A stretch of DNA of 32,000 bases, from NCBI GenBank assembly GCA_000743035.1, contig CP008936.1, forward strand, positions 1,170,001-1,202,000, read 5' to 3'. Shown one piece after another: positions 1-20,173 of the stretch. A program made the translations under genes and the position numbers. The notes beneath the pieces are model-generated. The model made no database searches and was not told the DNA's origin. It worked only from the letters and a program-made list of their open reading frames with translations. Source of the DNA: Candidatus Paracaedimonas acanthamoebae. Lineage in GTDB: Bacteria > Pseudomonadota > Alphaproteobacteria > Caedimonadales > Caedimonadaceae. The first letter of the stretch is position 1; each line of letters starts with the position of its first letter.

Positions 1-32
1 TGGGACAAGCCCAAGGATGACAGGATAAGGTG

Positions 33-1066
33 GTCATTCTCGGGCGTGTCCCGAGAATCTCAAGTAACCGATAGGTCTCACCCATCACCACTCGATGCCT
101 GTCTTCTTCACACTGCGCCTCTCACGCACAATGAGGACTCTTCTCTGGTACCTTTCAGCATCTCTTTGTTGCCTGAGATCCCCGCCTCCGCAAGGATGAC
201 AAAGAAGAAGCCAGGGCTGACAAAAGAAAGGATTTTTCCTCTATCGGAGCCTTTCCATGACTTTCCTCGTTTCAAAAGGTAAAACCAGAAAAATTGTCCT
301 CTCGTTGTCACTAACTTCACGCCTTTTCTTTTCCAACTCGTGCCTCTCACACACGGTTGAGGACTTCCTGTCCGTCCCCTTATTTGTCATTCCCGCGAAG
401 GCGGGAATCCATCCTCTGTTTTTCGCAAGCGTGCCTCTCAGGCGCACTTGGGACCTTCTGGCACCTATGCACATCCTCAGGTTGCCTGAGATCCCCGGCA
501 CAAGGCCGGGGATGACCGTGTGGTCGATATGTCTCAAGTTCATCAGTTTTAATTCTTTTGTTTCCAATCATTTTTTCTTCCTTCCTTTATTGTTTTCATT
601 TCTATTTAGTCTTCACCAATGAATTTCAAATCCTTACATTCTCGTCATCCTAGGCCTTGTGCCTAGGATCTCAAGCGACCTGCAGGTCTCTCCTGTCACC
701 ATTTGTTGTCCTTCGGTCCTTCCTGGATCCCCGCGTCTCGCCTCGACGTAGACAGGATCTCAGGGAGAACAAGAGAGAGGCTAGGAATGACAAACCAACA
801 CCTTTCAATCCTCCTTATTTTCCACCAAACCCTCTCCTTTTCCGTGCCCAACTCGGCCTTTTCATCAGGCAAAGAGGGGGCATTTGCTCAAAAAGAGCGT
901 TCATTGGCTTTTAATGAGCTTTTAGGGCTCAATTTTTAATCGGACGGATGGAGGGAATTTTTGAAGAGGATTGAGAGCTTTTTTAAAGGCCCGCAAGGAA
1001 GTAAATTTCATCTCTGACCATCTACTAATAGGCTACCATATCATGATACAAAAATCAAGAAAATTC
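33..1066. repeat. Long composite repeat, copy A (1034 bp = the 721-bp block plus a 313-bp extra segment)
   Basis: 33-148 and 462-1066 match 18270-18385 and 18386-18990 base for base by eye (offsets +18237 and +17924). The ORF track gives identical peptides at 657/18581 and 703/18627. Hairpin modules lie at 36-58, 389-408, 491-513 and 647-669. The region is visibly more GC-rich than the flanking DNA. Confidence 0.9.
149..461. repeat. Copy-A-specific 313-bp segment absent from copy B, with TCTGG at both junctions
   Basis: Copy B reads ...ctcttctctgg|cacctatgc..., while copy A reads ...ctcttctctgg|tacctttcagc...(313 bp)...ggaccttctgg|cacctatgc. The segment carries two more hairpin modules: 171-200 (degenerate) and 386-410 (gtcattcccgcgaaggcgggaatcc). 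Confidence 0.85.
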
Positions 1067-1299
1067 GCCCCAAATATGTATTATTTTATTGTTTTAAATC
1101 AAGTAGTTGAAAGAATATTTTAACTTACCTAAATCTTCCAGATAATATCGATAGTTAGGCGGTTTCGTTCTGCCACCTAAACATTTAAGAATTAAATGAT
1201 GTTTTAGAACTTAAAGCTCTTTTTTTGAAGAGCATCCCCCTTAAGATAAAATATTCCTAAGTTTCTCTATAAGGTCCTTTGCATAACCATAAAAGCCTT

Positions 1300-1700
1300 T
1301 TCCGGCATCTCCTAAACTCCGCTTTCGCGGAGATAACAAGATGAAATCCGAGGATAACAAGAAAGAATGCCTGAATATGCGCTTTTACTTTTCCTCTCCT
1401 CTTCCAGCTCATGCCTGTCACACAATTAGAAGCTTCTGCTACCTTTCACAGCATCCTCTGGTGGCCTGAGACCCCGTCACAAGGCCGGGGATGACGATGG
1501 AGACGTTGCTTATCCTATGTTTTCCTTTCCAACATCCGTTCTTATGTTTTCTTTCTCCCCCAACCTGTGTCATCCTCGGGCTTGTCCCGAGAATCCCAAG
1601 CGACCGGAAGACCTATCCCGGCCCCAATCAATGCCTTTCCTTCAGTATTCTCTGGATCCCCGCCTGTGCGAGGATGACCTAACAGAGCTTTTTTGTCTCT
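1300..1700. repeat. Cluster of diverged hairpin-repeat modules, related to 18075-18385
   Basis: Modules: 1316-1345 (ctccgctttcgcggag), 1464-1495 (gcctgagaccccgtcacaaggccggggatgac), 1569-1613 (gtcatcctcgggcttgtcccgagaatcccaagcgacc) and 1652-1678 (ctggatccccgcctgtgcgaggatgac). The flanks (cttccagctcatgcctgtcacaca, cttatcct..ttcctttccaacat) align at roughly 70-75% by eye with 18090-18270. Confidence 0.75.
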
Positions 1701-2122
1701 AACAACACCATGTTTATTTCTTATTCATCACGCTTTTTTGACATTTTAGGATTACCTATGATGAAAAAAATGAGATATAAAACTTTTATCGCAACAAACG
1801 AGATAAAAAGCAATAAAATCAAGCACTTTTATACTTGCATTTCCAATAAGAGCTCGCTATGATGTTTTTAGATAGGTAGCTGGGGGCTGCCAAAGCGTTC
1901 ACTAAAGATCCTAGCAAGTTAGGGGAGGGAGCTTTAGATAAAAAAACAGGGAAGGCTTAAAGATTTAACATCACCCCCACCAATTTCTTAAGTTTTTCAT
2001 TTTTATGAGTCATTTTAGAAATCTACGATTTGTATAGGGTTTTTCTTACAATTTCTCGTGAATCGATCATATAAAGAAATTTTTCATCCTCATAATCAGT
2101 TAAAATTCCATTGTGATGCAAT

Positions 2123-2155
2123 AAAAAAAGAGGCCTTAAAAGGCCTCTTTTTATT
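2123..2155 (-). terminator. Rho-independent terminator downstream of the 2173-3144 gene (bidirectional shape)
   Basis: The stem agaggcc/ggcctct (2129-2135 / 2142-2148) is flanked by an A-run on one side and a T-run on the other. It lies 20 bp beyond the stop codon. Confidence 0.7.
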
Positions 2156-2172
2156 TTTAAAAATAAAATTCT

Positions 2173-3144
2173 TTATTTTTTGATCGCAAATGCGATTGTA
2201 AATTCGGAGCTAGCCAATCTCTCTGAACTTCCATCTTCTAAATAATAATGCCCAACAAAACCTTCAAAACCTTGAGCGCTTAAAGTATGACTAATTCTTT
2301 TTTCATCAATATCAAGCTTCGCTTTAGCATTGGGATACTCTGCAAGAATATTGGCAATCCTTTGAACGCCGGGAGCAGCAAGCTTATGAGAAGCAAGACC
2401 ACCTTGGATTTCTTCCTTTTGGCGCACAACATCTCCAGCAAGCATTGAATAGCCTAGATCTAATTTTCTCCATTCCAAAGGGATACCCAACAATCTTTTT
2501 ACTTCCTCATAGGTGAGTGAGGGTGGTGCCCCCGCAACATGAGATGGAAGTTTTACTTTCATGACAGGCCCTGTTTTCTCATCTTCCTCTACAAAGGTAA
2601 CCTTTACAGGAATAGGAAGAACAATTTTGCTGGACGCTGTACTTGATGAGGGTAAGTGTGTGGCAAATGGATCTTCATTTTTTACGCTAGGATTTGCTTT
2701 TCGACGACCAGCTTTTGGTGACTCCCTTTCAACACTTTCTTTTGAACCTTTAAGAGAGTGTGTTTTCTTTACAGACTTCCTGTGGGTTTTTGGAGATTTC
2801 GTCTCTTCGGGCTTCTCGCCGAAGGTGGATGAAGAACCATTATTGATACTAGGAGATTCATTATCACCTTCAAGGGAAAGCGGTTGCCAAGGACGAGGAG
2901 TCGATGGTAATACGGGAGCAGGTTCGTCGAACGCTTCTTCATTATTAATTTCTTGATTAGCTTTTTTGTTCGCTAATGCAATATCATCAGGAGTAAAGTA
3001 TCGCGCATCTTTCTTGTTGAGAAAAGAAGGTAAGCTTCTTTGCGCTGTAGATTCTTCTTCTGGTTGTGAAGCCCATAGAGATGCCCCCGCGGACACCGCC
3101 CATACTGACACACTTAAGACAATTTTTTTTGCGACATTTTTCAT
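2173..3144 (-). CDS. Exported hypothetical protein, paralogue family member 1 (323 aa)
   Basis: Long ORF with an ATG start. Signal peptide MKNVAKKIVLSVSVWAVSAGASLWA. The middle is S/P/K/E-rich and low-complexity. The C-terminal region is related to the 4048-5205 product (AKLDIDEKRISHTLSAQG vs ARLSADERRSHSTLAGH). A terminator follows. Confidence 0.8.
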   Translation of the reverse strand: MKNVAKKIVLSVSVWAVSAGASLWASQPEEESTAQRSLPSFLNKKDARYFTPDDIALANKKANQEINNEEAFDEPAPVLPSTPRPWQPLSLEGDNESPSINNGSSSTFGEKPEETKSPKTHRKSVKKTHSLKGSKESVERESPKAGRRKANPSVKNEDPFATHLPSSSTASSKIVLPIPVKVTFVEEDEKTGPVMKVKLPSHVAGAPPSLTYEEVKRLLGIPLEWRKLDLGYSMLAGDVVRQKEEIQGGLASHKLAAPGVQRIANILAEYPNAKAKLDIDEKRISHTLSAQGFEGFVGHYYLEDGSSERLASSEFTIAFAIKK

Positions 3145-3379
3145 CCATGGCTCCTTTTCTGCTATAGTAAAGTCCTTTACTTATAACAGAACTAAACTAA
3201 AATTCAAACAAAAATTGTCAAAATGGTATTTTTAAAACTCTATCAGAAAATGGCGAGAATTTCCTCTAGCCTTCCTTCTTTAATTTGCGAGCCTCCTTTT
3301 GAACAGCAAAAGTGAGACAAATCAAAATGCTAGGGATTCTCTCTGTTCCGATATAAGCATGATAGAAACCAAAATTAGA

Positions 3380-3895
3380 CTACATCTTTGGCCCAAGCGT
3401 ATTCGCATTCCTTTTCTCATCGCCGATTTCTTCGGTGTGAAAGTTGGCCTGTAATGTTCTCACCGCTTTCTCAAATTTACGAAAATCTCCCTGCAAGCCA
3501 ACAAGAAAGCCTTTCATAAACTTTTTTATATCTTCCGCCTTGGTGACAATAAGGCTATCTTTGACCTTATTAACAGCTGGCTTTTTGATTATTTTATCAT
3601 ACCTGATTGCGGTCCTTAAATTCTCGAGGCCTTTCCCTTCATTTCAAGGTCTTCAGGTTGTACGTTGAGATCTTCAGCTTTTGCGTCATAAAAACCAGCT
3701 GTCATTTGTTGGTATGGAAGATAGACTTTATTATATTTTCTTGTTGCATTTCCACCCCCCAACCCTATCCCTTGCTCTCCAGCACAGGCAATAAGAATAA
3801 AATTTCTTGCCGGAGTTCAGCGCTGCTACTTGCAAAAAAGCTGCTACTTGCCAAAGATAAAGGCTGAGAGAAATTTTTTGGCCCAATTCTTTCAT
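3380..3895 (-). pseudogene. Degraded ORF, possibly a former lipoprotein gene, split over at least three frames
   Basis: Minus-strand frames read MKELGQKISLSL..., then ..NFILIACAGEQGIGLGGGNATRKYNKVYLPYQQMTAGFYDAKAEDLNVQPEDLEMKGKASRI*, which has the lipobox-like motif LIAC. The third frame reads NLRTAIRYDKIIKKPAVNKVKDSLIVTKAEDIKKFMKGFLVGLQGDFRKFEKAVRTLQANFHTEEIGDEKRNANTLGPKM*. No single intact frame exists. A 12-nt unit gctgctacttgc is duplicated at 3822-3833 and 3840-3851. Confidence 0.3.
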
Positions 3896-4047
3896 TACAC
3901 ACCTCCACTTCATATTATAGAGCCTGTTTTAACAATAGATGGAAAATGTAAAGCAAGTTGCCAATAAGGCTTTTTATCGCTAAATTTCAGCGTATAGCAA
4001 AGCTCTACTTCATTTATTTTTTTTATAAAAAGACAAGAGTAACATCA

Positions 4048-5205
4048 TTACTTTTTATGATAAAAAGTTAAGCTAAGTACAACCCCCTCCATGTCATACT
4101 GTTTTTCTACAATCTGATACTCAGCTAACTTAGAAATGTGTCCTGCAAGTGTTGAATGACTTCTTCTTTCGTCTGCACTTAGCCTTGCACCTGCATGCCT
4201 TAAGCACAAGTCTTCAATTTTCTTTTGTAGCCCTTCAATTGCATTATTTATTGTAAGAGATTCAACACGAGAAAATGATGTTTTAACAACTTCATTGTTA
4301 TCCTTTATAACCAAATACTTTTTCAAAATTGCAAGAGGTTCTGAATTTCTAAATTTATCAAGGAGAAGAAAAGGAAACAAATCCTCTTCTTTTTTACCTT
4401 TTAACAGACTTTTATAGTTACAACTTAAGTCTTGCCCAGGAAAAAAAACTTTATAAGTCATCCCAGTATGGGGATCATCTCCTGCTAGCAAAAGCAAGAT
4501 GAGTTCCCAAGCTTCTAGTCGAGCCGGCAAAGCAAAAGTCTTTTTAGTCTCTTTCTTTTCCCCTAAGAACTCGTCAAAGAGATTTTGTGCTACATTAGAG
4601 CTCAAATTATTTACCTTCAAAGGCTTTTTCTCTTCTGACTTGTTGTCTAACTCCGTAGGCTTTTCCTCATCATAAGGCTTAATAATCATTGTGACAGGTC
4701 TAGACTCATCTTCTAGTATGTTATTGTTTGCAATAACCTGACTTATTGTTTCTGCTTCGTTTTTACTTTTTGCAGTCGCCTTTGGCTTTTGGACTTTTTT
4801 CGCTTTTGCTCCTTTTACTGGTACTGGCTCTTTCTCTTTTTCCTTCTCTTTAAGAACCTTTAATTTTGCAAGACGAGGAGAATGTCCCTTCTTTTTAGAA
4901 GATGTGGTTGTCGGTGCCGTTATGGTTATATTTTCTAAAGCTTCTTCAGCTTTTTCAAGCTCGTCAAGTACGAACTGTCGATCTTCTAAAGGAGCTATTT
5001 TTTTCATTAGCGCAACACGGTTAAGTTCTTGAGGTGCATGAGGATCAACTTGACTTGATATCATACTTGAGTGAGGTGCTCTATATCCCTTAGGAGAAGC
5101 TTCTTCAAATTCAGAACTCGCTATGAGGCTAGCACTATGCATTAAAATAAAAAGACTATAAAAACTGAAAACAAATGATCTATAAGATACCAAAATAAGC
5201 TCCAT
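4048..5205 (-). CDS. Exported hypothetical protein, paralogue family member 2 (385 aa), lysine-rich
   Basis: Long ORF with an ATG start. The hydrophobic N-terminus ends in ..HSASLIA|SS. It has a K/E-rich stretch (KEKEKEKEPVPVKGAKAKKVQKPKATAKSK). The C-terminus LAEYQIVEKQYDMEGVVLSLTFYHKK is related to its neighbours. No obvious RBS. Confidence 0.75.
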   Translation of the reverse strand: MELILVSYRSFVFSFYSLFILMHSASLIASSEFEEASPKGYRAPHSSMISSQVDPHAPQELNRVALMKKIAPLEDRQFVLDELEKAEEALENITITAPTTTSSKKKGHSPRLAKLKVLKEKEKEKEPVPVKGAKAKKVQKPKATAKSKNEAETISQVIANNNILEDESRPVTMIIKPYDEEKPTELDNKSEEKKPLKVNNLSSNVAQNLFDEFLGEKKETKKTFALPARLEAWELILLLLAGDDPHTGMTYKVFFPGQDLSCNYKSLLKGKKEEDLFPFLLLDKFRNSEPLAILKKYLVIKDNNEVVKTSFSRVESLTINNAIEGLQKKIEDLCLRHAGARLSADERRSHSTLAGHISKLAEYQIVEKQYDMEGVVLSLTFYHKK

Positions 5206-5259
5206 TTAAAAATTTACCAAATTTACCATTAGATAATGGTTTAAGTACTTTTTGCCTCA

Positions 5260-5871
5260 CTAATTAACCTCTTCAGTTTTTTTAACTTTATGAAATTCGA
5301 TCTTCAGAACAACATCGGCTATAGAGGTTCCAGTGAGAGTATATTCAGCTAAAATTATTTTAGGAGAAGATGCTTTCAATCTTTTATGGCCATTTGCTTG
5401 ATCTGTTTTTAGTAAAGACGCTCGTGTTTTTTGGTCTTTCTTAATTTCTTCCACAATATCAAAGGATATTAAGTTCTTCACACCAACTTCAATACTTTTT
5501 AAGCGCGCCTCTCTTCTTGAAAAGACAACCTCTACTCTATCTAAAATATTGACCAAATCTTGAAAATTTATTTTTGTTGGCGTCGAAAAGACCTTCGGTT
5601 TCTCTTTTGACGCAAACTCAGTCCCTACTGTTTTATAATTTTTTTTACCCGAATCTTTACCCTTTTGAGACAATAAAGCCGAAAAAGGATCTGAGATTGG
5701 ACCTAGAGTGCTCGCCTTTCTTTTGGTAGACGGAGACATTCTCATTATATGCTTAGCTGATATATTTTCTTCTCCATATATATCTTCTGCAAGAGAACTA
5801 GTAGCTAAAGCAGGCATTAAATAACTGAAGAAAAAAACAAAAAATGTAAGAACAAAGCTGATTAATTTCAT
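5260..5871 (-). CDS. Exported hypothetical protein, paralogue family member 3 (203 aa)
   Basis: ORF with an ATG start. Signal peptide MKLISFVLTFFVFFFSYLMPALA. The C-terminus LAEYTLTGTSIADVVLKIEFHKVKK aligns with member 2. A GGGAGA motif lies upstream of the start. Confidence 0.75.
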   Translation of the reverse strand: MKLISFVLTFFVFFFSYLMPALATSSLAEDIYGEENISAKHIMRMSPSTKRKASTLGPISDPFSALLSQKGKDSGKKNYKTVGTEFASKEKPKVFSTPTKINFQDLVNILDRVEVVFSRREARLKSIEVGVKNLISFDIVEEIKKDQKTRASLLKTDQANGHKRLKASSPKIILAEYTLTGTSIADVVLKIEFHKVKKTEEVN

Positions 5872-5990: not shown

Positions 5991-6019
5991 GAAATGATAT
6001 TTCCATTATGGAGTTTAAT

Positions 6020-6721
6020 ATGAAAGCTTTTAAATTTCTTGCTCTATCTGCCGTTGCCGTATCAACAACCTCCGTTTATGCAAAAGAAAAGTTTTCAGAG
6101 AATGCTGAAGCTCGCCCTCTTCGCTCACGTGCAGCAGAGAAAGATCTTTTAGTTCTTTCCGGTCTTAACACTGCAAAAGGTGTTATGAAAACCAAACAGA
6201 TCCTTGAAGATATCTATAAAAAACTTGCAAAGGATCAACGTAAGCAAAGAATCGCAGCAAGAAAAGCAGCTTTAAAAAAAGCAAGAATGGAGCAAAAGGA
6301 AAAGCTTGCTATTGAAGCAAAACTTAATGCGATTTCGAAGCTTCCTGCCGTAGTTGATACGCTGAATGTTCCAACAGCGATGAAACTTTTGTTTATGTAT
6401 CCACAAGTCCAGAATCCAGATCTTGAAGAGGCCATTGTAAATAAAACAAATGCTCTTATGAGACGCCGTAAAGATTCAGTTGCGATCGATAGAAAAGCTG
6501 AATACATTAATAAACTTGACGTTTATTTTGCCGAGGTCGAGCAGGATTCAAAATATTGGGCACTTGGTAATGATGGCTACCGTCACGTTGTAAAATCAGT
6601 AAGTCGCCCTCATGTTGAGAAGATCTTCTCTGAGAATAGTTTCTCAAAGCCAAAAACACGCCTATTCGCAAAAAGAATGAAGGTATGGGAAAAGAAAGAA
6701 AAGGCCGCGGCAGCTGCGTAA
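6020..6721 (+). CDS. Exported hypothetical protein, K/R/A-rich and probably coiled-coil (233 aa)
   Basis: The ORF is open from 6008, but GGAG at 6010-6013 sits 6 nt before the ATG at 6020. That start yields a clean signal peptide, MKAFKFLALSAVAVSTTSVYA. A terminator follows the stop. Confidence 0.75.
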   Translation: MKAFKFLALSAVAVSTTSVYAKEKFSENAEARPLRSRAAEKDLLVLSGLNTAKGVMKTKQILEDIYKKLAKDQRKQRIAARKAALKKARMEQKEKLAIEAKLNAISKLPAVVDTLNVPTAMKLLFMYPQVQNPDLEEAIVNKTNALMRRRKDSVAIDRKAEYINKLDVYFAEVEQDSKYWALGNDGYRHVVKSVSRPHVEKIFSENSFSKPKTRLFAKRMKVWEKKEKAAAAA

Positions 6722-7121: not shown

Positions 7122-7640
7122 TTATTGAGCAACCCATAAAGATTTTAAATTCTCAAGACGAGCCCGTGTGACAAGATAACCCGCCACAAAATCTTCTGTT
7201 TGTTCTGTGGAGTGCCCTTCTTTCCATTCAAAATGATTCAAGATAAGAGTATAGATCTCATTAACATTGGCAACGAGACTTTTCCGTGTCAAAGCATCAC
7301 CCATTGGAACATGTACCTTTCCTTTGCTAAAAATATCTGCCATATATTTTGCCGTCTTTAATATATGTTCTTCCTTAGTATATTGCTTTAGTGTTTCCAT
7401 CAAAAAGTGGGGAAGCCCATGTTTCAACATTTCATCAGATAATGACATAGTAAGCCCTGGTTTTACTTGAGAGAGATCCAACTTAAGTTCCCCATTCCAG
7501 CCAGCCACCACAGAAGTATGCTTAGATAAAAATACCTTAACTTCCTCTTCACTCATGATCCCCTTCTCAATAGCGTTGGCACCAGGAATACACAACGCAC
7601 AAGACATAACATACGCCAACAAGTGATTTTTTAAAAACAT
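7122..7640 (-). CDS. Exported hypothetical protein (172 aa)
   Basis: The ORF is open to 7676. AAGGAG lies 7 nt upstream of the ATG at 7640, which gives the signal peptide MFLKNHLLAYVMSCALCIPGANA. I recognise no family. Confidence 0.7.
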   Translation of the reverse strand: MFLKNHLLAYVMSCALCIPGANAIEKGIMSEEEVKVFLSKHTSVVAGWNGELKLDLSQVKPGLTMSLSDEMLKHGLPHFLMETLKQYTKEEHILKTAKYMADIFSKGKVHVPMGDALTRKSLVANVNEIYTLILNHFEWKEGHSTEQTEDFVAGYLVTRARLENLKSLWVAQ

Positions 7641-7778
7641 TTTAGTGCTCCTTTTGATTCTAAGACAATCATGCATTCAGTATACCAAACATCTATTAAT
7701 TTAATACTAAAAATGGTAATCAATTATAAGAATAATTCTATTTCTGAGAAAAAGGCTTAACAACACAAAAGCCAATAA

Positions 7779-12607: not shown

Positions 12608-13132
12608 TCATTCTGATAAATTTGGTTTCTCTTTATAAAAAGCAATAACAAGGCTATACCCTTCAAGGCGAGATCCTTTTTTATCTTCAGGCTTATCCTT
12701 TTTATGAAAATGATAAGTGACAATAAAAGGCTTATACTTTTCGCCCATCGTTCCTTGCGGACGAGTCTCTTCTACAACACGCTTTACATAAATAAGTTCA
12801 TTCTTATCTGCGTTAATAAGGTTCATTAAACGTATGGTATCCGGCATTTTATGCGCTGCCCACAAACCTAATTCAATTTCTTTTGGTTCAGCAACTAGAT
12901 CAGGTATCGATCCACTTTCTGGATTAGGAAGAACTTTCCTACACTTAGCATTTAATATCTCCAATAATTTTTCTCGCCCAATAGTTTTTGGGCAAACAAA
13001 TACATTTTCTTTGTTAGGCTTGCCTTTTTCTAAATATTCTTCAAATACATTCGTCGAGGCCATTCCTACAGAGGGATAAACCAATATCAATCCAGCACTT
13101 AATAACATACTTGAAAATGAGCGATTCTGCAT
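12608..13132 (-). CDS. Exported hypothetical protein (174 aa), possibly a distant member of the 2173-5871 family
   Basis: ATG start with AGGGGA upstream. Signal peptide MQNRSFSSMLLSAGLILVYPSVGMA. C-terminus ..FIVTYHFHKKDK..RLEGYSLVIAFYKEKPNLSE resembles FTIAFAIKK and LSLTFYHKK. Confidence 0.7.
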   Translation of the reverse strand: MQNRSFSSMLLSAGLILVYPSVGMASTNVFEEYLEKGKPNKENVFVCPKTIGREKLLEILNAKCRKVLPNPESGSIPDLVAEPKEIELGLWAAHKMPDTIRLMNLINADKNELIYVKRVVEETRPQGTMGEKYKPFIVTYHFHKKDKPEDKKGSRLEGYSLVIAFYKEKPNLSE

Positions 13133-16704: not shown

Positions 16705-17611
16705 TCATAGCCTTTTAGTAAAATCACTTAGATCAGAGTTTATACTGGAAAGTCTAACATAAATATTCTTTAAACTAGACTTTAAAATTTCGCCACTATA
16801 TTCTGTAGTTCCGCCCTTCACCTCTCCAGCGCTTGTGTGAATGCCTATCATCCTTACCTTGATAAACAATAGATACACCACTTGAACCGCCTAAAGTAGG
16901 AATAGTATGATTTTGATTTCCTGGAGTTATGAATCCCTGGTTAATTCTCTGACCCTCTACTCCATAAGGATAGTGAAAAATGGTTACTTTTCTTTTTATG
17001 GTAATTTCTTGGTGGTCTCTAGGCATACTATAACTAGCCAATTTTGTTTTCTCAATAACAGGAGTTGTTAGTTCACACTCTATGTAAGCCAGATCTTCTG
17101 TATTATGAATAAATACTCGCTTAGCAGTATATAAAGCTAAATGTGTTATAAGAGAGTTACCAGGCATGGTTAATACCGAATCCATTGTAAAAGTTATAGT
17201 ACCTTTTTCTTGTACGACATGTGCTGCAGTTAGGACTTTAATGGTGTCAGTATTGTTTTCAATAATAGTGCCCGTACCTGCATTAATAACGGTTTTTCCC
17301 CCTAAAGGATCAAAAAATTCATTTTCAATAAAACCAACCGAACCTTGAAAATTGTTCTCAATCAACGAAGTTGAAGGAAAAATTTCCTTAAATTGATCGT
17401 CATTAACCTTATATCGTCCATGTCCTACTTTCTCCATGGAGACTTTATTTTTGCCAAGAAAAGCTTCAAGCTTTTTTAAATCTTTATCGTCTTCATTAAA
17501 ATCAGAGACAGATGCATATAGTTGTGGCGTGAAACTAAGTATGGAAACGACACTTAAAATCAATTTAGGAAGTTTCTTGCTGTCGAAGAAAAACTTTAGC
17601 CAATGACTCAC
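16705..17611 (-). pseudogene. Trypsin-like (S1 family) serine protease, apparently frameshifted near its 3' end
   Basis: Triad in chymotrypsin-fold order: LTAAHVV (His), TEDLAYIE (Asp) and TLGGSSGVSIV (Ser). Frame 1 ends at 16796 with the atypical tail KDDRHSHKRWRGEGRNYRI. A shifted frame from about 16855 reads MIGIHTSAGEVKGGTTEYSGEILKSS...DFTKRL* (stop at 16705-16707), which restores the expected xIGIH motif after the catalytic Ser. The likely start is GTG at 17611, preceded by GGAGGAG, giving the signal peptide VSHWLKFFFDSKKLPKLILSVVSILSFTPQLYA. The ORF is open upstream to 17854, but that part is repeat DNA. Confidence 0.6.
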
Positions 17612-18269
17612 ATTCTCCTCCACTATTTTCTTCTTTTGTGCTCTAAAGAGCACGACCAAAGTGTCTATTACTTTCGTCTTCCTGAAACTCCAAAAAAGCT
17701 TTCCTCTCTCTGGCCCATGCCTACCCCACATGCCAAGGGCCTTCTGGTGCCTATTCACATCTTCTGATGACCTAAGATCCCCTCCTTCGCGGGGATGCCG
17801 GCGTGTGTGGTACTCTTGGAGCTCGTCATTTAATAGCTTTTTATTTCTAATCATTTGTTCTTCCTTTCTTTATTCATTTTCATTTCCAGTAGTCTTCGCT
17901 ATTAAGTCCTGAGTGCTTCCATTCTCGTCATCCTAGGCCTTGTGCCTAGGATCTCAAGCGACCGTAAGATCTCACCTACCACCACTCGATGTCTTCGGCC
18001 TTTCCTGGATCCCCTCCTCCGCGAGGATAACAATAGGAGTGTGCAGGAATGATACAAAAAAGTGTTTGTTGCCATCCGTGCCTTTACTTTACCCCTCCTC
18101 TTCCAGATCGTGCCTGTGACACACAAGTACGCCTCTCGCCACCTTCAGGCTGCCTGAGATCCCCGGCACAAGGCCGGGGATGACGATGCAGAAGACGCTT
18201 ATCCTCGGAGTTCCTTTCCAACATTCTTTCTAACATCCTTGCCAACGAGCACTCTCGCACCCAACTTGT
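17612..18269. repeat. Array of diverged hairpin-repeat modules abutting repeat copy B
   Basis: 17770-17975 is a diverged copy of 484-690 (ttatttctaatcatttgttcttcctttctttattcattttcatttcc...cattctcgtcatcctaggccttgtgcctaggatctcaagcgacc). Modules lie at 17771-17797, 17927-17975, 18005-18031 and 18152-18184. 18075-18269 is related to 1385-1570. Confidence 0.8.
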
Positions 18270-18990
18270 GTCATTCTCGGGCGTGTCCCGAGAATCTCAA
18301 GTAACCGATAGGTCTCACCCATCACCACTCGATGCCTGTCTTCTTCACACTGCGCCTCTCACGCACAATGAGGACTCTTCTCTGGCACCTATGCACATCC
18401 TCAGGTTGCCTGAGATCCCCGGCACAAGGCCGGGGATGACCGTGTGGTCGATATGTCTCAAGTTCATCAGTTTTAATTCTTTTGTTTCCAATCATTTTTT
18501 CTTCCTTCCTTTATTGTTTTCATTTCTATTTAGTCTTCACCAATGAATTTCAAATCCTTACATTCTCGTCATCCTAGGCCTTGTGCCTAGGATCTCAAGC
18601 GACCTGCAGGTCTCTCCTGTCACCATTTGTTGTCCTTCGGTCCTTCCTGGATCCCCGCGTCTCGCCTCGACGTAGACAGGATCTCAGGGAGAACAAGAGA
18701 GAGGCTAGGAATGACAAACCAACACCTTTCAATCCTCCTTATTTTCCACCAAACCCTCTCCTTTTCCGTGCCCAACTCGGCCTTTTCATCAGGCAAAGAG
18801 GGGGCATTTGCTCAAAAAGAGCGTTCATTGGCTTTTAATGAGCTTTTAGGGCTCAATTTTTAATCGGACGGATGGAGGGAATTTTTGAAGAGGATTGAGA
18901 GCTTTTTTAAAGGCCCGCAAGGAAGTAAATTTCATCTCTGACCATCTACTAATAGGCTACCATATCATGATACAAAAATCAAGAAAATTC
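18270..18990. repeat. Long composite repeat, copy B (721 bp)
   Basis: Identical by eye to 33-148 plus 462-1066, in the same orientation. Hairpin modules at 18270-18320, 18408-18440 and 18568-18614. Confidence 0.9.
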
Positions 18991-19194
18991 AATACCAAAA
19001 TATAAGAAATAACTATTTAAAATCAATTATTTATAAATAATTTTCCCATTATTCCCCACGTTTCTACATCCTGATGAGCTCCAGCTTTACTTAAGACGAG
19101 CCTTATTTATTAAACAAATTAACGCCTCCATCGACAGAAAGACGATTAAAAAATTTACTGCGATTCTTCTTCCACCTTCAGTTTTTTTACAAAT

Positions 19195-19501: not shown

Positions 19502-20173
19502 TCAGGAAAGGTACTTTAGGCTTTCCACCAGCTCATTCACCGCGTTAAGAACTGCTTCACGATAAGGCTTAAAATCTTCGGATGCATTTTTAAGCTTTTT
19601 CTTCTCATTTAACATTTGAGGAGCAAGACCAATAGCAGGCATCGTTGAGGAAAATTTCATTTTAAAGCTTTCTAAAACTTGCTTTAATTGCATTGCTGCT
19701 TTTGCACCACCATCTTGGAACCCATAGCTTATAATGATGGCAGGTTTATCTTTCCATTCAGCATAAAGATAATCGATGGCATTCTTCAATGATGCAGGAT
19801 AGCCACAATTATATTGCGGTGTCACAAAAATATACCCATCATATGAGGCAATTTCATGGCCCCATTTCTTAGTATGAGCATGCACATAGGTTTTGGGCCC
19901 ATTGAGAGGCATTCCTGGCTCATTAAAAAGGGGCAAATTCCACTTCTCAAGGTCAACCAAAGTAAACTGTAAATTTGGTGCTTCTTGAACTTGTTGGAAG
20001 ACCCACTCAGCCACTTGCCCACCAATTTTGTTGGGACGTGTGCTGCCAATAATGATGCCAATTTTATAAGTTGATTTTTCTTTCACTGGGTTAGTATTTG
20101 CAAGATGAGCTTCTTGCCCGCTGAGCGATAATGGCCCCCATATCATTAAAAAAAGACTTAAAATAAAGCGCAT
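19502..20173 (-). CDS. NADPH-dependent FMN reductase family protein with an N-terminal signal-like extension
   Basis: ATG start with GAGGA upstream. The core KIGIIIGSTRPNKIGGQVAEWV...YDGYIFVTPQYNCGYPASLKNAIDYL is typical of the FMN_red family. It is preceded by about 35 extra residues, MRFILSLFLMIWGPLSLSGQEAHLANTNPVKEKSTY. Confidence 0.8.
   Translation of the reverse strand: MRFILSLFLMIWGPLSLSGQEAHLANTNPVKEKSTYKIGIIIGSTRPNKIGGQVAEWVFQQVQEAPNLQFTLVDLEKWNLPLFNEPGMPLNGPKTYVHAHTKKWGHEIASYDGYIFVTPQYNCGYPASLKNAIDYLYAEWKDKPAIIISYGFQDGGAKAAMQLKQVLESFKMKFSSTMPAIGLAPQMLNEKKKLKNASEDFKPYREAVLNAVNELVESLKYLS

What the first reader, a model, noticed from the sequence alone, without database searches (positions are those of the whole stretch)
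2173..5871. Tandem family of diverged exported proteins with a shared C-terminal module and no family I recognise
Three same-strand neighbouring genes (2173-3144, 4048-5205, 5260-5871) share one architecture. Each starts with a signal peptide, continues with a length-variable K/E/S/P-rich low-complexity linker, and ends in a related C-terminal region.

- **Member 1 vs member 2:** AKLDIDEKRISHTLSAQG vs ARLSADERRSHSTLAGH, and IPLEWRKLDLGYSMLAGD vs LEAWELILLLLAGDD.
- **Member 2 vs member 3:** LAEYQIVEKQYDMEGVVLSLTFYHKK vs LAEYTLTGTSIADVVLKIEFHKVKK.
- **Shared ending:** all three stop just after an alternating-hydrophobic strand followed by lysines (FTIAFAIKK, LSLTFYHKK, LKIEFHKVKK).
- **Possible fourth member:** the unlinked 12608-13132 product ends in a similar way (YSLVIAFYKEK).

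Tandem duplication, fast divergence and export are what I would expect of a surface or effector family in a host-associated bacterium.
Basis: partly seen in the sequence, partly recalled or inferred. Interest (0 to 1): 0.7.

Follow-up and report, generated by a model that had tools for sequence, protein, structure and literature searches.

The report
New exported protein family, amoeba symbiont
An amoeba-dwelling bacterium carries a cluster of fast-evolving genes for exported proteins that share a small, previously undescribed C-terminal domain found almost nowhere else; its role is unknown but may be in dealing with the host.

Summary
The window is chromosome of Candidatus Paracaedimonas acanthamoebae, a Holosporales symbiont living in Acanthamoeba cytoplasm.

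- **Architecture:** the minus-strand genes M1 (2173-3144), M2 (4048-5205) and M3 (5260-5871) each encode a signal-peptide-like N-terminus, a linker of 36-175 aa rich in K/E/S/P, and a C-terminal module of about 140-190 aa.
- **Homology:** direct BLAST between the three is not significant. Profiles connect them through M4 (12608-13132), which is just signal peptide plus module. M1-M4 is strong. M2 is a divergent member (hhalign P 2.6e-5 over 141 colinear columns). M3 is the weakest (P 0.001; HMM score beats all 2000 shuffles).
- **Missed member:** a decayed fourth tandem paralog lies at 3269-3913.
- **No known relative:** nothing in Pfam, NCBIfam, PDB sequences or Foldseek (PDB, BFVD). An exhaustive profile search of 1.84 billion proteins gave 18 genuine matches, most with a hydrophobic signal-like N-terminus and a linker before the module.
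- **Fast evolution:** orthologs are 34-58% identical where flanking housekeeping genes are 75-96%.
- **Function:** untested. I favour a host-directed or surface role. A periplasmic or envelope role is the main rival.

The parts
2173..3144 (-). M1 (IM40_06095), 323 aa. Signal-peptide-like N-terminus at about 3067-3144, a K/E/S/P linker at about 2650-3066, and the C-terminal module at about 2176-2649.
   Evidence: ORF. It is 100% identical to P0001. The module scores E 9e-54 against the family HMM and aligns with M4 over about 150 columns. Orthologs occur in L001, L007, L010 and L011.
3269..3913 (-). Pseudogene of a fourth tandem paralog (type OG2b, ortholog of the intact 343-aa gene L001:8846-9877). 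The start of its signal peptide is kept, most of the linker is deleted, there are at least two frameshifts and one in-frame stop, and the C-terminal motifs are still readable (GDEKRNANTLG, ILICLTFAVQKE).
   Evidence: tblastn with the L001 protein gives 61-70% identity in two frames, E 7e-56.
4048..5205 (-). M2 (IM40_06115), 385 aa; NCBI starts it 4 codons later. Signal-peptide-like N-terminus at about 5119-5205, a K-rich linker at about 4633-5118 holding one ESRPVTMIIKP unit, and a divergent enlarged module at about 4051-4632.
   Evidence: ORF; P0010. hhalign of A1 vs A4 gives P 2.6e-5 over 141 columns. The broadened HMM, which did not contain M2, gives E 0.0045 at the C-terminus, ranked directly after the undisputed members.
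5260..5871 (-). M3, 203 aa. Signal-peptide-like N-terminus at about 5803-5871, a short linker at about 5692-5802, and a putative degenerate module at about 5263-5691. It lacks the H-K and DE.R..T motifs.
   Evidence: ORF. Orthologs occur in L001, L007, L010 and L011 at 34-36% identity. The family HMM gives E 6.3e-5, with 0 of 2000 shuffles reaching that score. hhalign gives P 0.001.
12608..13132 (-). M4 (IM40_06165), 174 aa. This is the minimal member: a signal-peptide-like N-terminus (13058-13132) followed directly by the module (12611-13057).
   Evidence: ORF; P0007. BLAST against M1 gives E 1e-4, and the alignment is A1. The AlphaFold2 model has pLDDT 73 and pTM 0.69.
2120..2157 (.). Palindromic hairpin (18-nt arms, 89% complementary) with A/T runs on both sides, 16 nt after the M1 stop codon. 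It is probably the terminator that closes the array.
   Evidence: Inverted repeat I11 and the terminator scan. That it actually functions as a terminator is inferred.

Best explanation
**What it is.** This is an undescribed protein family restricted to one lineage of Holosporales endosymbionts. In Candidatus Paracaedimonas acanthamoebae it appears as an old, partly decaying tandem array, M3 - M2 - pseudogene - M1, on the minus strand. A minimal unlinked copy, M4, lies 9.5 kb away.

**Shown here:**
- Each protein has a signal-peptide-like N-terminus, a flexible polyampholyte or basic linker of very variable length, and a compact alpha/beta module of about 130-150 aa (enlarged in M2).
- Across 20 divergent members the module has invariant His-Lys, Thr and Tyr and a near-invariant Glu.
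- The module ends in an amphipathic strand followed by lysines.
- There is no relative in the domain or structure libraries I could search.
- The family evolves much faster than its neighbours.
- Copies have been gained, lost, broken and, in two proteins, doubled.

**Inferred.** The proteins cross the inner membrane by Sec and are cleaved by signal peptidase I. The module is the working part, with its conserved polar residues forming one binding or catalytic site. The linker acts as a spacer or carries short interaction motifs. The family acts at the bacterium-host interface, either released into the amoeba cytoplasm or exposed on the envelope, and evolves under pressure from the host.
For: **The family is real:**
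- M1-M4 BLAST gives E 1e-4. Alignment A1 is colinear over about 150 residues.
- hhalign of A1 vs the M2 family gives P 2.6e-5 over 141 columns. A1 vs the M3 family gives P 0.001. Controls give 0.15-0.73.
- The family HMM ranks the M2, OG2b and M3 types directly above noise. M3 beats all 2000 shuffles.

**The family is new and narrow:**
- Pfam and NCBIfam give nothing above their cut-offs.
- The PDB profile search gives 0 hits at E <= 10.
- Foldseek gives best E 0.087 with TM <= 0.24 against PDB, and best E 0.018 against BFVD.
- Word-indexed searches of 5.8 billion proteins gave only 6, 3 and 3 hits for M1, M4 and M2, the query's own database entry included in each count.
- The exhaustive profile search of 1.84 billion representatives gave 20 hits. 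Two of them are repeat-driven false positives.

**Conserved site:** H69, K70, T103 and Y115 are invariant, and E97 and L81 are at least 90% conserved, across 20 sequences that are 15-63% identical to M4.

**Module fold:** the M4 model has pLDDT 73 and pTM 0.69, with three helices and seven strands, the last three of them long.

**Fast evolution and turnover:**
- M1 is 45-48% identical to its orthologs, M2 54%, M3 34-36% and M4 42-58%. In the same genomes SLT is 78-92%, DapA 75-87%, SmpB 93-96% and GlyS 79-83%.
- There is a pseudogene in the window.
- The M2 ortholog is split in all six places shown for Caedibacter sp. 38-128, drawn from NCBI, ENA, JGI and Logan assemblies.
- L007 has no M2 at all.
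- Two-module proteins exist: both modules of P0020 score strongly; in P0026 only one of the two reported stretches was significant.

**Host-facing context:**
- The organism lives in Acanthamoeba cytoplasm (PMC11909080).
- Neighbours of family members elsewhere include LRR, Sel1, PLD and a kinase-like protein with a signal peptide.
- In the same order, Holospora periplasmic protein PRP1, which has a putative signal peptide, is released into the host nucleus (PMC9866348). Chlamydial periplasmic HtrA reaches the host cytosol (PMC3107777).
Against: - No experiment or expression data bear on the question.
- Signal peptides were judged by a crude heuristic only.
- A Sec signal peptide delivers a protein to the periplasm only. 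The systems proposed for Holosporales effector delivery are type VI (PMC11909080) and plasmid-borne type IV (PMC5751055), and to my knowledge their substrates do not normally carry Sec signal peptides.
- The array sits beside a housekeeping-type lytic transglycosylase, which fits an envelope role equally well.
- Rapid divergence can also reflect weak constraint.
- M3 membership rests on modest statistics.
- The M2 structure model failed (pLDDT 44), so M2's fold could not be compared with M4's.
Confidence: 0.55

Rival explanations
1. The proteins are periplasmic or envelope-associated and serve the bacterium itself, for example in cell-wall or outer-membrane organisation. They are not released to the host. 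Fast divergence then reflects weak constraint in a small-population endosymbiont.
For: - A Sec-type N-terminus is the only export signal seen.
- The array is syntenic with a Slt70-type lytic transglycosylase in every related genome.
- M4 sits among housekeeping genes: glyQS, BON, CsbD, smpB.
Against: - Core envelope functions are not usually 34-58% identical where their neighbours are 75-96%.
- They are also not usually lost, broken or doubled between close relatives.
- The family is absent from all other bacteria.
- There is no lipobox cysteine and no C-terminal aromatic beta-barrel signal; the proteins end in lysines.
Confidence: 0.27
2. The array is a set of periplasmic immunity proteins, including orphan or decayed copies, that protect against a peptidoglycan- or membrane-targeting toxin of a type VI or similar system.
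For: - Tandem arrays of divergent small periplasmic proteins with signal peptides, some of them decayed, are typical of immunity-gene islands (my own knowledge).
- Holosporales widely carry a type VI system (PMC11909080).
- An SLT-domain gene is nearby.
Against: - No toxin-like partner gene was recognised next to any member. The neighbours have no Pfam hit, or are LRR, kinase-like or PLD proteins in unrelated positions.
- The SLT gene is the conserved 646-aa housekeeping type, at 78-92% identity.
- Long disordered linkers of 139-175 aa are unusual for immunity proteins, to my knowledge.
- M4 stands alone among housekeeping genes.
Confidence: 0.07
3. Only M1 and M4, and perhaps M2, are homologous. 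M3 merely shares a lysine-tailed amphipathic C-terminal strand and a similar composition, so the 'three-gene family' is overstated.
For: - BLAST finds no link from M3 to any member.
- M3 lacks the H-K and DE.R..T motifs.
- hhalign probability is only 5-31%.
- Two of the five M3 orthologs score within noise.
- The exhaustive search with the M1+M4 profile recovered no M3 or M2 type.
Against: - M3 and two of its orthologs score 11-16 bits against a family HMM built without them, above all 2000 shuffles and above their reversed sequences.
- The alignment is colinear over the whole module.
- The M3 position at the head of the array is conserved in four related genomes.
Confidence: 0.2
4. The whole resemblance is a compositional artefact of K/E-rich proteins, and the ORFs are unrelated orphans.
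For: Raw pairwise BLAST between the three tandem genes is not significant, with E 0.9-4.6.
Against: - Profile comparisons give P 1e-3 to 2.2e-6, while compositionally similar neighbouring secreted families give 0.15-0.73.
- Shuffle controls were beaten.
- The same invariant residues recur in distant members from unrelated contigs.
Confidence: 0.03

Closest known systems
Holospora obtusa periplasmic region proteins (63-kDa PRP1, 89-kDa invasion-tip protein)
   Same: They come from the same order (Holosporales). They have novel sequences with a putative signal peptide, accumulate in the periplasm, and are then exposed or released to the host (PMC9866348). This is the nearest precedent for how a Sec-exported protein of such a symbiont could reach the host.
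   Different: No sequence relationship was found or tested directly. PRP1 is much larger and has a D5_N DNA-binding domain. Holospora has a specialised infectious form, whereas Paracaedimonas is a cytoplasmic symbiont. The resemblance concerns the route of export only.
Sec-dependent secreted proteins of obligate intracellular bacteria (e.g. chlamydial cHtrA, PMC3107777)
   Same: A signal peptide is followed by a periplasmic stage and then appearance in the host cytosol, without a dedicated effector signal.
   Different: Those proteins belong to known enzyme families. The module here matches no known family.
Tandem paralogous surface or effector gene families of intracellular bacteria (e.g. Anaplasma msp2/p44, Rickettsia sca genes; my own knowledge)
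   Same: Clustered paralogs, fast divergence, pseudogenes, variable repeat-containing linkers, and restriction to one lineage.
   Different: Those families are outer-membrane beta-barrels or autotransporters. These proteins are small and soluble-looking, end in lysines, and have no beta-barrel signal. There is no evidence of recombination between copies, since no DNA repeats link them.
Periplasmic immunity-protein arrays of type VI systems
   Same: Small signal-peptide proteins in divergent tandem copies, some of them decayed.
   Different: No adjacent toxin gene was recognised, the linkers are long and disordered, and M4 lies alone among housekeeping genes.

Membership tests
Any curated domain family (Pfam-A, NCBIfam) | A score at or above the family's curated cut-off | tested here: not met
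   The best hits are all below cut-off and mutually inconsistent, for example Peptidase_A3 at 15.5 bits against a cut-off of 21.3. Across 20 family members no Pfam family is hit by more than one member.
Any protein with a solved structure | Sequence-profile or fold similarity to a PDB chain | tested here: not met
The family defined here (Paracaedimonas M1/M4-type module) | Block A: a conserved Pro followed by an amphipathic helix (P..L/I....L..LL) at the start of the module | tested here: met
   The helix pattern is present in M1, M2, M3, M4 and the distant members. The conserved Pro itself is replaced in three of them (L1_190, P0025, P0028).
The family defined here (Paracaedimonas M1/M4-type module) | An invariant His-Lys (A-S/A-H-K-L/M) in mid-module | tested here: inconclusive
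   The motif is invariant in the 20 M1/M4-type members. It is absent or unrecognisable in M2, in the pseudogene type and in M3. These are therefore divergent subtypes, not core members.
The family defined here (Paracaedimonas M1/M4-type module) | The D-E-x-R-x-x-x-T-L/F-G motif followed by G-x-Y-x-L | tested here: met
   Present in M1, M4, M2 (DERRSHSTLAG...AEYQI) and the pseudogene (DEKRNANTLG...GFYHA). In M3 it is degenerate: TDQANGHKRL...LAEYTL.
The family defined here (Paracaedimonas M1/M4-type module) | A terminal alternating-hydrophobic strand followed by Lys/Glu (F-x-I-A-F-x-x-K-K) | tested here: met
   Present in all four genes, the pseudogene and the distant members.
Outer-membrane beta-barrel proteins or autotransporters | A C-terminal beta-signal ending in an aromatic residue, with a long run of amphipathic strands | tested here: not met
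   The proteins end in KK, KKTEEVN or KEKPNLSE. The M4 model has 7 strands packed with 3 helices.
Bacterial lipoproteins | A lipobox with Cys at +1 of the cleavage site | tested here: not met
   None of M1-M4 has a cysteine at or near the end of the hydrophobic region.
Type VI immunity-protein arrays | An adjacent cognate toxin/effector gene | tested here: inconclusive
   No toxin domain was recognised in neighbours in the window or in related loci. However, several neighbours have no annotation at all.
H-Y-E type ADP-ribosyltransferases (considered because His, Tyr and Glu are conserved) | Conserved residues in the order His ... Tyr ... Glu, on an ART fold | tested here: not met
   The order here is H69, E97, T103, Y115. 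There is no ART among the Foldseek hits and no Pfam ART hit.

The most novel reading that the evidence does not exclude
The module is a new fold. Its invariant His-Lys / Glu / Thr / Tyr residues form an active or ligand-binding site. The proteins leave the periplasm and act on an Acanthamoeba target. The variable linkers carry short eukaryote-like motifs: basic SPK/RK clusters in M1 and M2, and PxxP runs in distant members such as P0025 and P0028. This would make the family the first defined Sec-dependent effector family of the Caedimonadaceae.
Probability: 0.25. Interest if true: 0.6.

Novelty: new variant of a known kind. Interest (0 to 1): 0.4.

Why it matters
Almost nothing is known about how Holosporales symbionts manipulate their protist hosts. 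A recent review names only the type VI system as a candidate and notes that no secreted molecules are known (PMC11909080).

This family offers a defined, testable set of candidate host-interface proteins. It is exported, fast-evolving, restricted to the lineage, and has a conserved putative functional site. A minimal 149-aa member (M4) is well suited to structure determination.

The family is also an example of a domain invisible to the standard libraries. It could be traced only by bridging through a small paralog and ortholog profiles.

If the proteins turn out to be merely periplasmic, the finding is an ordinary orphan family of local interest.

Tried and rejected
- **Raw pairwise BLAST** between the three tandem genes was not significant. 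I replaced it with ortholog profiles.
- **Exact-sequence lookup of M1** failed. The locus was reached through homologs instead.
- **Structure of the M2 module** from 3 orthologs plus pseudogene fragments gave pLDDT 44 and is unusable.
- **Genome-collection scan** with the M1 alignment returned only the already known Caedibacter sp. 38-128 contig.
- **Plasmid search** by tblastn found no match.
- **P0022 and P0027**, from the exhaustive search, were rejected as members. They are GYR/YLP-motif and giant repeat proteins.
- **An ADP-ribosyltransferase reading** of the conserved His, Tyr and Glu was rejected on residue order and the lack of fold hits.
- **Beta-barrel and lipoprotein readings** were rejected from the sequence itself.
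- **dN/dS** was not attempted, because at 35-55% amino-acid identity synonymous sites are saturated.
- **Literature searches** found no paper on these genes.

Full report
**Where the window comes from.** M1 (2173-3144, minus strand) is 100% identical to 'hypothetical protein IM40_06095 [Candidatus Paracaedimonas acanthamoebae]', on a 1,722,347-bp contig. M2 corresponds to IM40_06115 (100% identical over 99% of the ORF; NCBI starts it four codons later) and M4 is IM40_06165. This organism was formerly called Candidatus Caedibacter acanthamoebae. It is a cytoplasmic symbiont of Acanthamoeba in the Caedimonadaceae (Holosporales), with a 1.7-Mb, 38% GC chromosome (PMC11909080). The rest of the window is ordinary chromosome: a lytic transglycosylase, dapA, smpB, a CsbD-like gene, a BON-domain gene, glyQS, rpoBC and ribosomal protein genes.

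**Checking the observation.** The three ORFs are at the stated coordinates, all on the minus strand.
- Each has a hydrophobic N-terminal core followed by small residues at -3/-1: M1 LWA|SQ, M2 LIA|SS, M3 ALA|TS, M4 GMA|ST. This is my own crude heuristic, not SignalP.
- There is no lipobox cysteine.
- The linkers are 139 aa (M1), 175 aa (M2) and 36 aa (M3). K+E+S+P makes up 41-47% of them, and hydrophobic residues only 16-25%, against 31-36% in the modules.
- Pfam and NCBIfam give nothing above cut-off.

**Is the C-terminal similarity more than chance?** Raw BLASTP among M1, M2 and M3 is not significant, with E 0.9-4.6 in a six-sequence database. M1 against M4, however, gives E 1e-4 over 94 residues.

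I collected orthologs from syntenic contigs. These were Caedibacter sp. 38-128 and several unnamed metagenome assemblies. BLAST among them added further links:
- An M4 ortholog matches the start of the M2 module (E 1e-4).
- An extra 343-aa paralog in Caedibacter sp. 38-128, which I call OG2b, matches the M2 module (E 0.001-0.009).

The M1 and M4 families align colinearly over about 150 columns, with invariant P, I..G..A.HK, E, T and Y. Profile-profile comparison with the tool gave:
- (M1+M4 families) vs the M2 family: probability 75%, P 2.6e-5, 141 aligned columns spanning the whole module.
- (M1+M4 families) vs the M3 family: probability 22%, P 0.001, 107 colinear columns.

My own hhalign runs agree. 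They give P 4.6e-6 for the last 51 columns of (M1+M4 families) against the M2 and OG2b families, and P 7e-5 for the first 38 columns of the M4 family against the M2 family. Two compositionally similar neighbouring secreted families (6008-6721 and 7122-7676) served as controls and gave P 0.15-0.73.

An HMM built from M1/M4-type members only, searched against all 198 ORFs of the window and seven related loci, ranked the sequences in a clear order. The five M2- and OG2b-type ORFs came directly after the true members (E 0.0017-0.0097, always at their C-termini). Two of the M3 types came next (E 0.085 and 0.25), and a third (0.57) sat level with the first noise hit; the other two scored at 4-8.

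After I added M2 and OG2b to the HMM, M3 scored 16.4 bits (E 6.3e-5) and two of its orthologs scored 15.5 and 11.1 bits. None of 2000 global or local shuffles of each sequence reached those scores, and the reversed sequences scored below 3 bits.

So M1 and M4 are clearly homologous. M2 and OG2b form a divergent subtype with an enlarged middle region and no His-Lys motif. M3 is a probable, degenerate member.

The 'LEW...LAGD' pairing is probably off by about 17 residues.

The 900-bp gap between M1 and M2 holds a pseudogene (3269-3913, minus strand) of the OG2b paralog.
- tblastn gives 61-70% identity to the intact gene of Caedibacter sp. 38-128, E 7e-56.
- The match is split over two frames and contains an in-frame stop.
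- Most of the linker is deleted, while the start of the signal peptide is kept (MKWRCVMKELGQKISLSL vs MTWSWVMKTLEQKISFSL).

The decay is reciprocal. In Caedibacter sp. 38-128 OG2b is intact, but the M2 ortholog is split into 232-aa and 190-aa ORFs in all six places shown, drawn from NCBI, ENA, JGI and Logan assemblies. Another relative (L007) has only M3 and M1.

No DNA-level repeats link the paralogs, and each paralog has its own orthologs. The duplications therefore predate these lineages. A palindromic hairpin at 2120-2157 follows M1.

**How widespread, and is it known?**
- Word-indexed searches of 5.8 billion proteins found 6, 3 and 3 hits for M1, M4 and M2, the query's own database entry included in each count.
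- An exhaustive HMMER search of 1.84 billion cluster representatives with the M1+M4 module profile found 20 proteins at E <= 0.001. Two of them are repeat-protein false positives.
- Most of the genuine distant members show the same plan: a hydrophobic, signal-like N-terminus, then a P/K/S-rich linker, then the module. Two of them were reported with two matched stretches; both modules of P0020 score strongly, while only one stretch of P0026 was significant.
- Across 20 members that are 15-63% identical to M4, H69, K70, T103 and Y115 (mature M4 numbering) are invariant, and E97 and L81 are at least 90% conserved.
- No Pfam family is hit by more than one member. The PDB profile search is empty. 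There is no plasmid match. No paper discusses these genes.

**Structure.** AlphaFold2 on mature M4, with a nine-sequence alignment, gave pLDDT 73 and pTM 0.69. The order of elements is H4-9, H28-35, four short strands, H75-83, and then three long strands at 89-97, 108-119 and 129-143. The invariant residues lie at or near the ends of these strands.

**Rate of evolution.** I compared the window with four or five related genomes.

| Gene | Identity to orthologs |
|---|---|
| SLT | 78-92% |
| DapA | 75-87% |
| SmpB | 93-96% |
| GlyS | 79-83% |
| M1 | 45-48% |
| M2 | 54% |
| M3 | 34-36% |
| M4 | 42-58% |

Within the M1 family the signal peptide and the ASHK-to-C-terminus part of the module are the best conserved (61-70%). 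The linker is the least conserved (33-57%), apart from islands such as FDEPAPV and the basic SPK..RK.VKK cluster. The M2 linker unit ESRPVT(M/K)IIKP occurs once in the window, twice in P0012 and four times in the L011 ortholog.

**Most likely mechanism.** The following are shown: the domain plan, the homology network, the conserved polar residues, the narrow distribution, and the fast turnover inside a stable syntenic backbone.

The rest is inferred. I think the proteins are exported by Sec and cleaved, and that the module is a small binding or catalytic domain held on a flexible spacer. I favour action at the symbiont-host interface, at about 0.5, for four reasons:
- The organism lies naked in the amoeba cytoplasm.
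- The family behaves like host-interaction genes.
- Members elsewhere sit beside LRR, Sel1, PLD and kinase-like secreted proteins.
- Periplasmic proteins with signal peptides are known to reach the host in Holospora (PMC9866348) and Chlamydia (PMC3107777).

The main rival, at about 0.27, is a purely periplasmic or envelope role. It is favoured by the Sec-only signal and by the conserved position next to the lytic transglycosylase. An immunity-array reading (about 0.07) lacks any recognisable toxin partner. A purely compositional artefact is excluded by the controls.

**Verdict.** This is a real, previously undescribed, lineage-restricted family of exported proteins, arranged as an old and partly decaying tandem array plus a minimal unlinked copy. 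It is a new domain within a familiar kind of biology, namely fast-evolving secretome families of intracellular bacteria. Interest is moderate. It would rise if the module proves to be a new fold acting on the host.

Noticed in passing
window 33-756 and 1381-1680; repeated at 17790-18680: A dispersed, GC-rich repeat bearing palindromes. Its largest shared block is 300 nt at 100% identity (457-756 = 18381-18680). One cluster lies just downstream of M1 and the other next to the trypsin-like ORF. It explains the GC spikes (0.47-0.48) at 1-1000 and 18001-19000.
   Followed up: partly
L010:5105-6628 (-) and L001:11702-12490 (-); no counterpart in window 1-2172: In two related genomes a 507-aa protein with a signal-peptide-like N-terminus and a weak protein-kinase match (Pkinase E 6.5e-4; HLDFKL catalytic-loop-like motif) converges on the M1 ortholog. 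tblastn finds nothing of it in the window, where the repeat elements sit instead.
   Followed up: partly
window 6008-6721 (+) and 7122-7676 (-): Two more proteins with signal-peptide-like N-termini and no Pfam or NCBIfam match lie between the array and the lytic transglycosylase, and are syntenic in related genomes. The first is very basic (pI 10), ends in a poly-Ala tail, and is only 32-51% identical between genomes. It is not related to the family (hhalign P 0.15-0.67).
   Followed up: partly
L001:7493-8708 (also L002-L006): The M2 ortholog of Caedibacter sp. 38-128 is split into overlapping 232-aa and 190-aa ORFs in all six places shown (NCBI, ENA, JGI and Logan assemblies), while its OG2b neighbour is intact. 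This is the reverse of the window, and suggests the two paralogs are functionally redundant.
   Followed up: partly
window about 4660-4710 (M2 linker); L011:5890-7170: The short linker unit ESRPVT(M/K)IIKP (with flanking D/E) varies in copy number between orthologs: 1 in the window, 2 in P0012 and 4 in L011. A similar string, EEDEKTGPVMKVKLP, sits at the start of the M1 module.
   Followed up: no
window 16796-17854 (-): An ORF with a weak trypsin-like peptidase match (Trypsin_2 E 1.3e-4, below cut-off) and an internal signal-peptide-like stretch. Its 5' end reads into the dispersed repeat, so the true start is probably further downstream or the gene is damaged.
   Followed up: no
P0020 (L014:5154-6491) and P0026: Both distant family members were reported with two matched stretches. 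In P0020 both modules score strongly. In P0026 the profile made only one significant match, so a second module there is not established. The P0020 locus also encodes PLD-like, Sel1-repeat and LRR-like proteins.
   Followed up: partly
L015:4613-6175: In another syntenic relative (GCA_006365035.1) a 520-aa leucine-rich-repeat protein is inserted directly after the M4 ortholog, between it and the BON-domain gene. It is absent from the window.
   Followed up: no
window 19502-20173 (-): An NADPH-dependent FMN reductase (FMN_red E 4e-34) that carries an N-terminal hydrophobic, signal-peptide-like extension, which is unusual for this normally cytoplasmic family.
   Followed up: no
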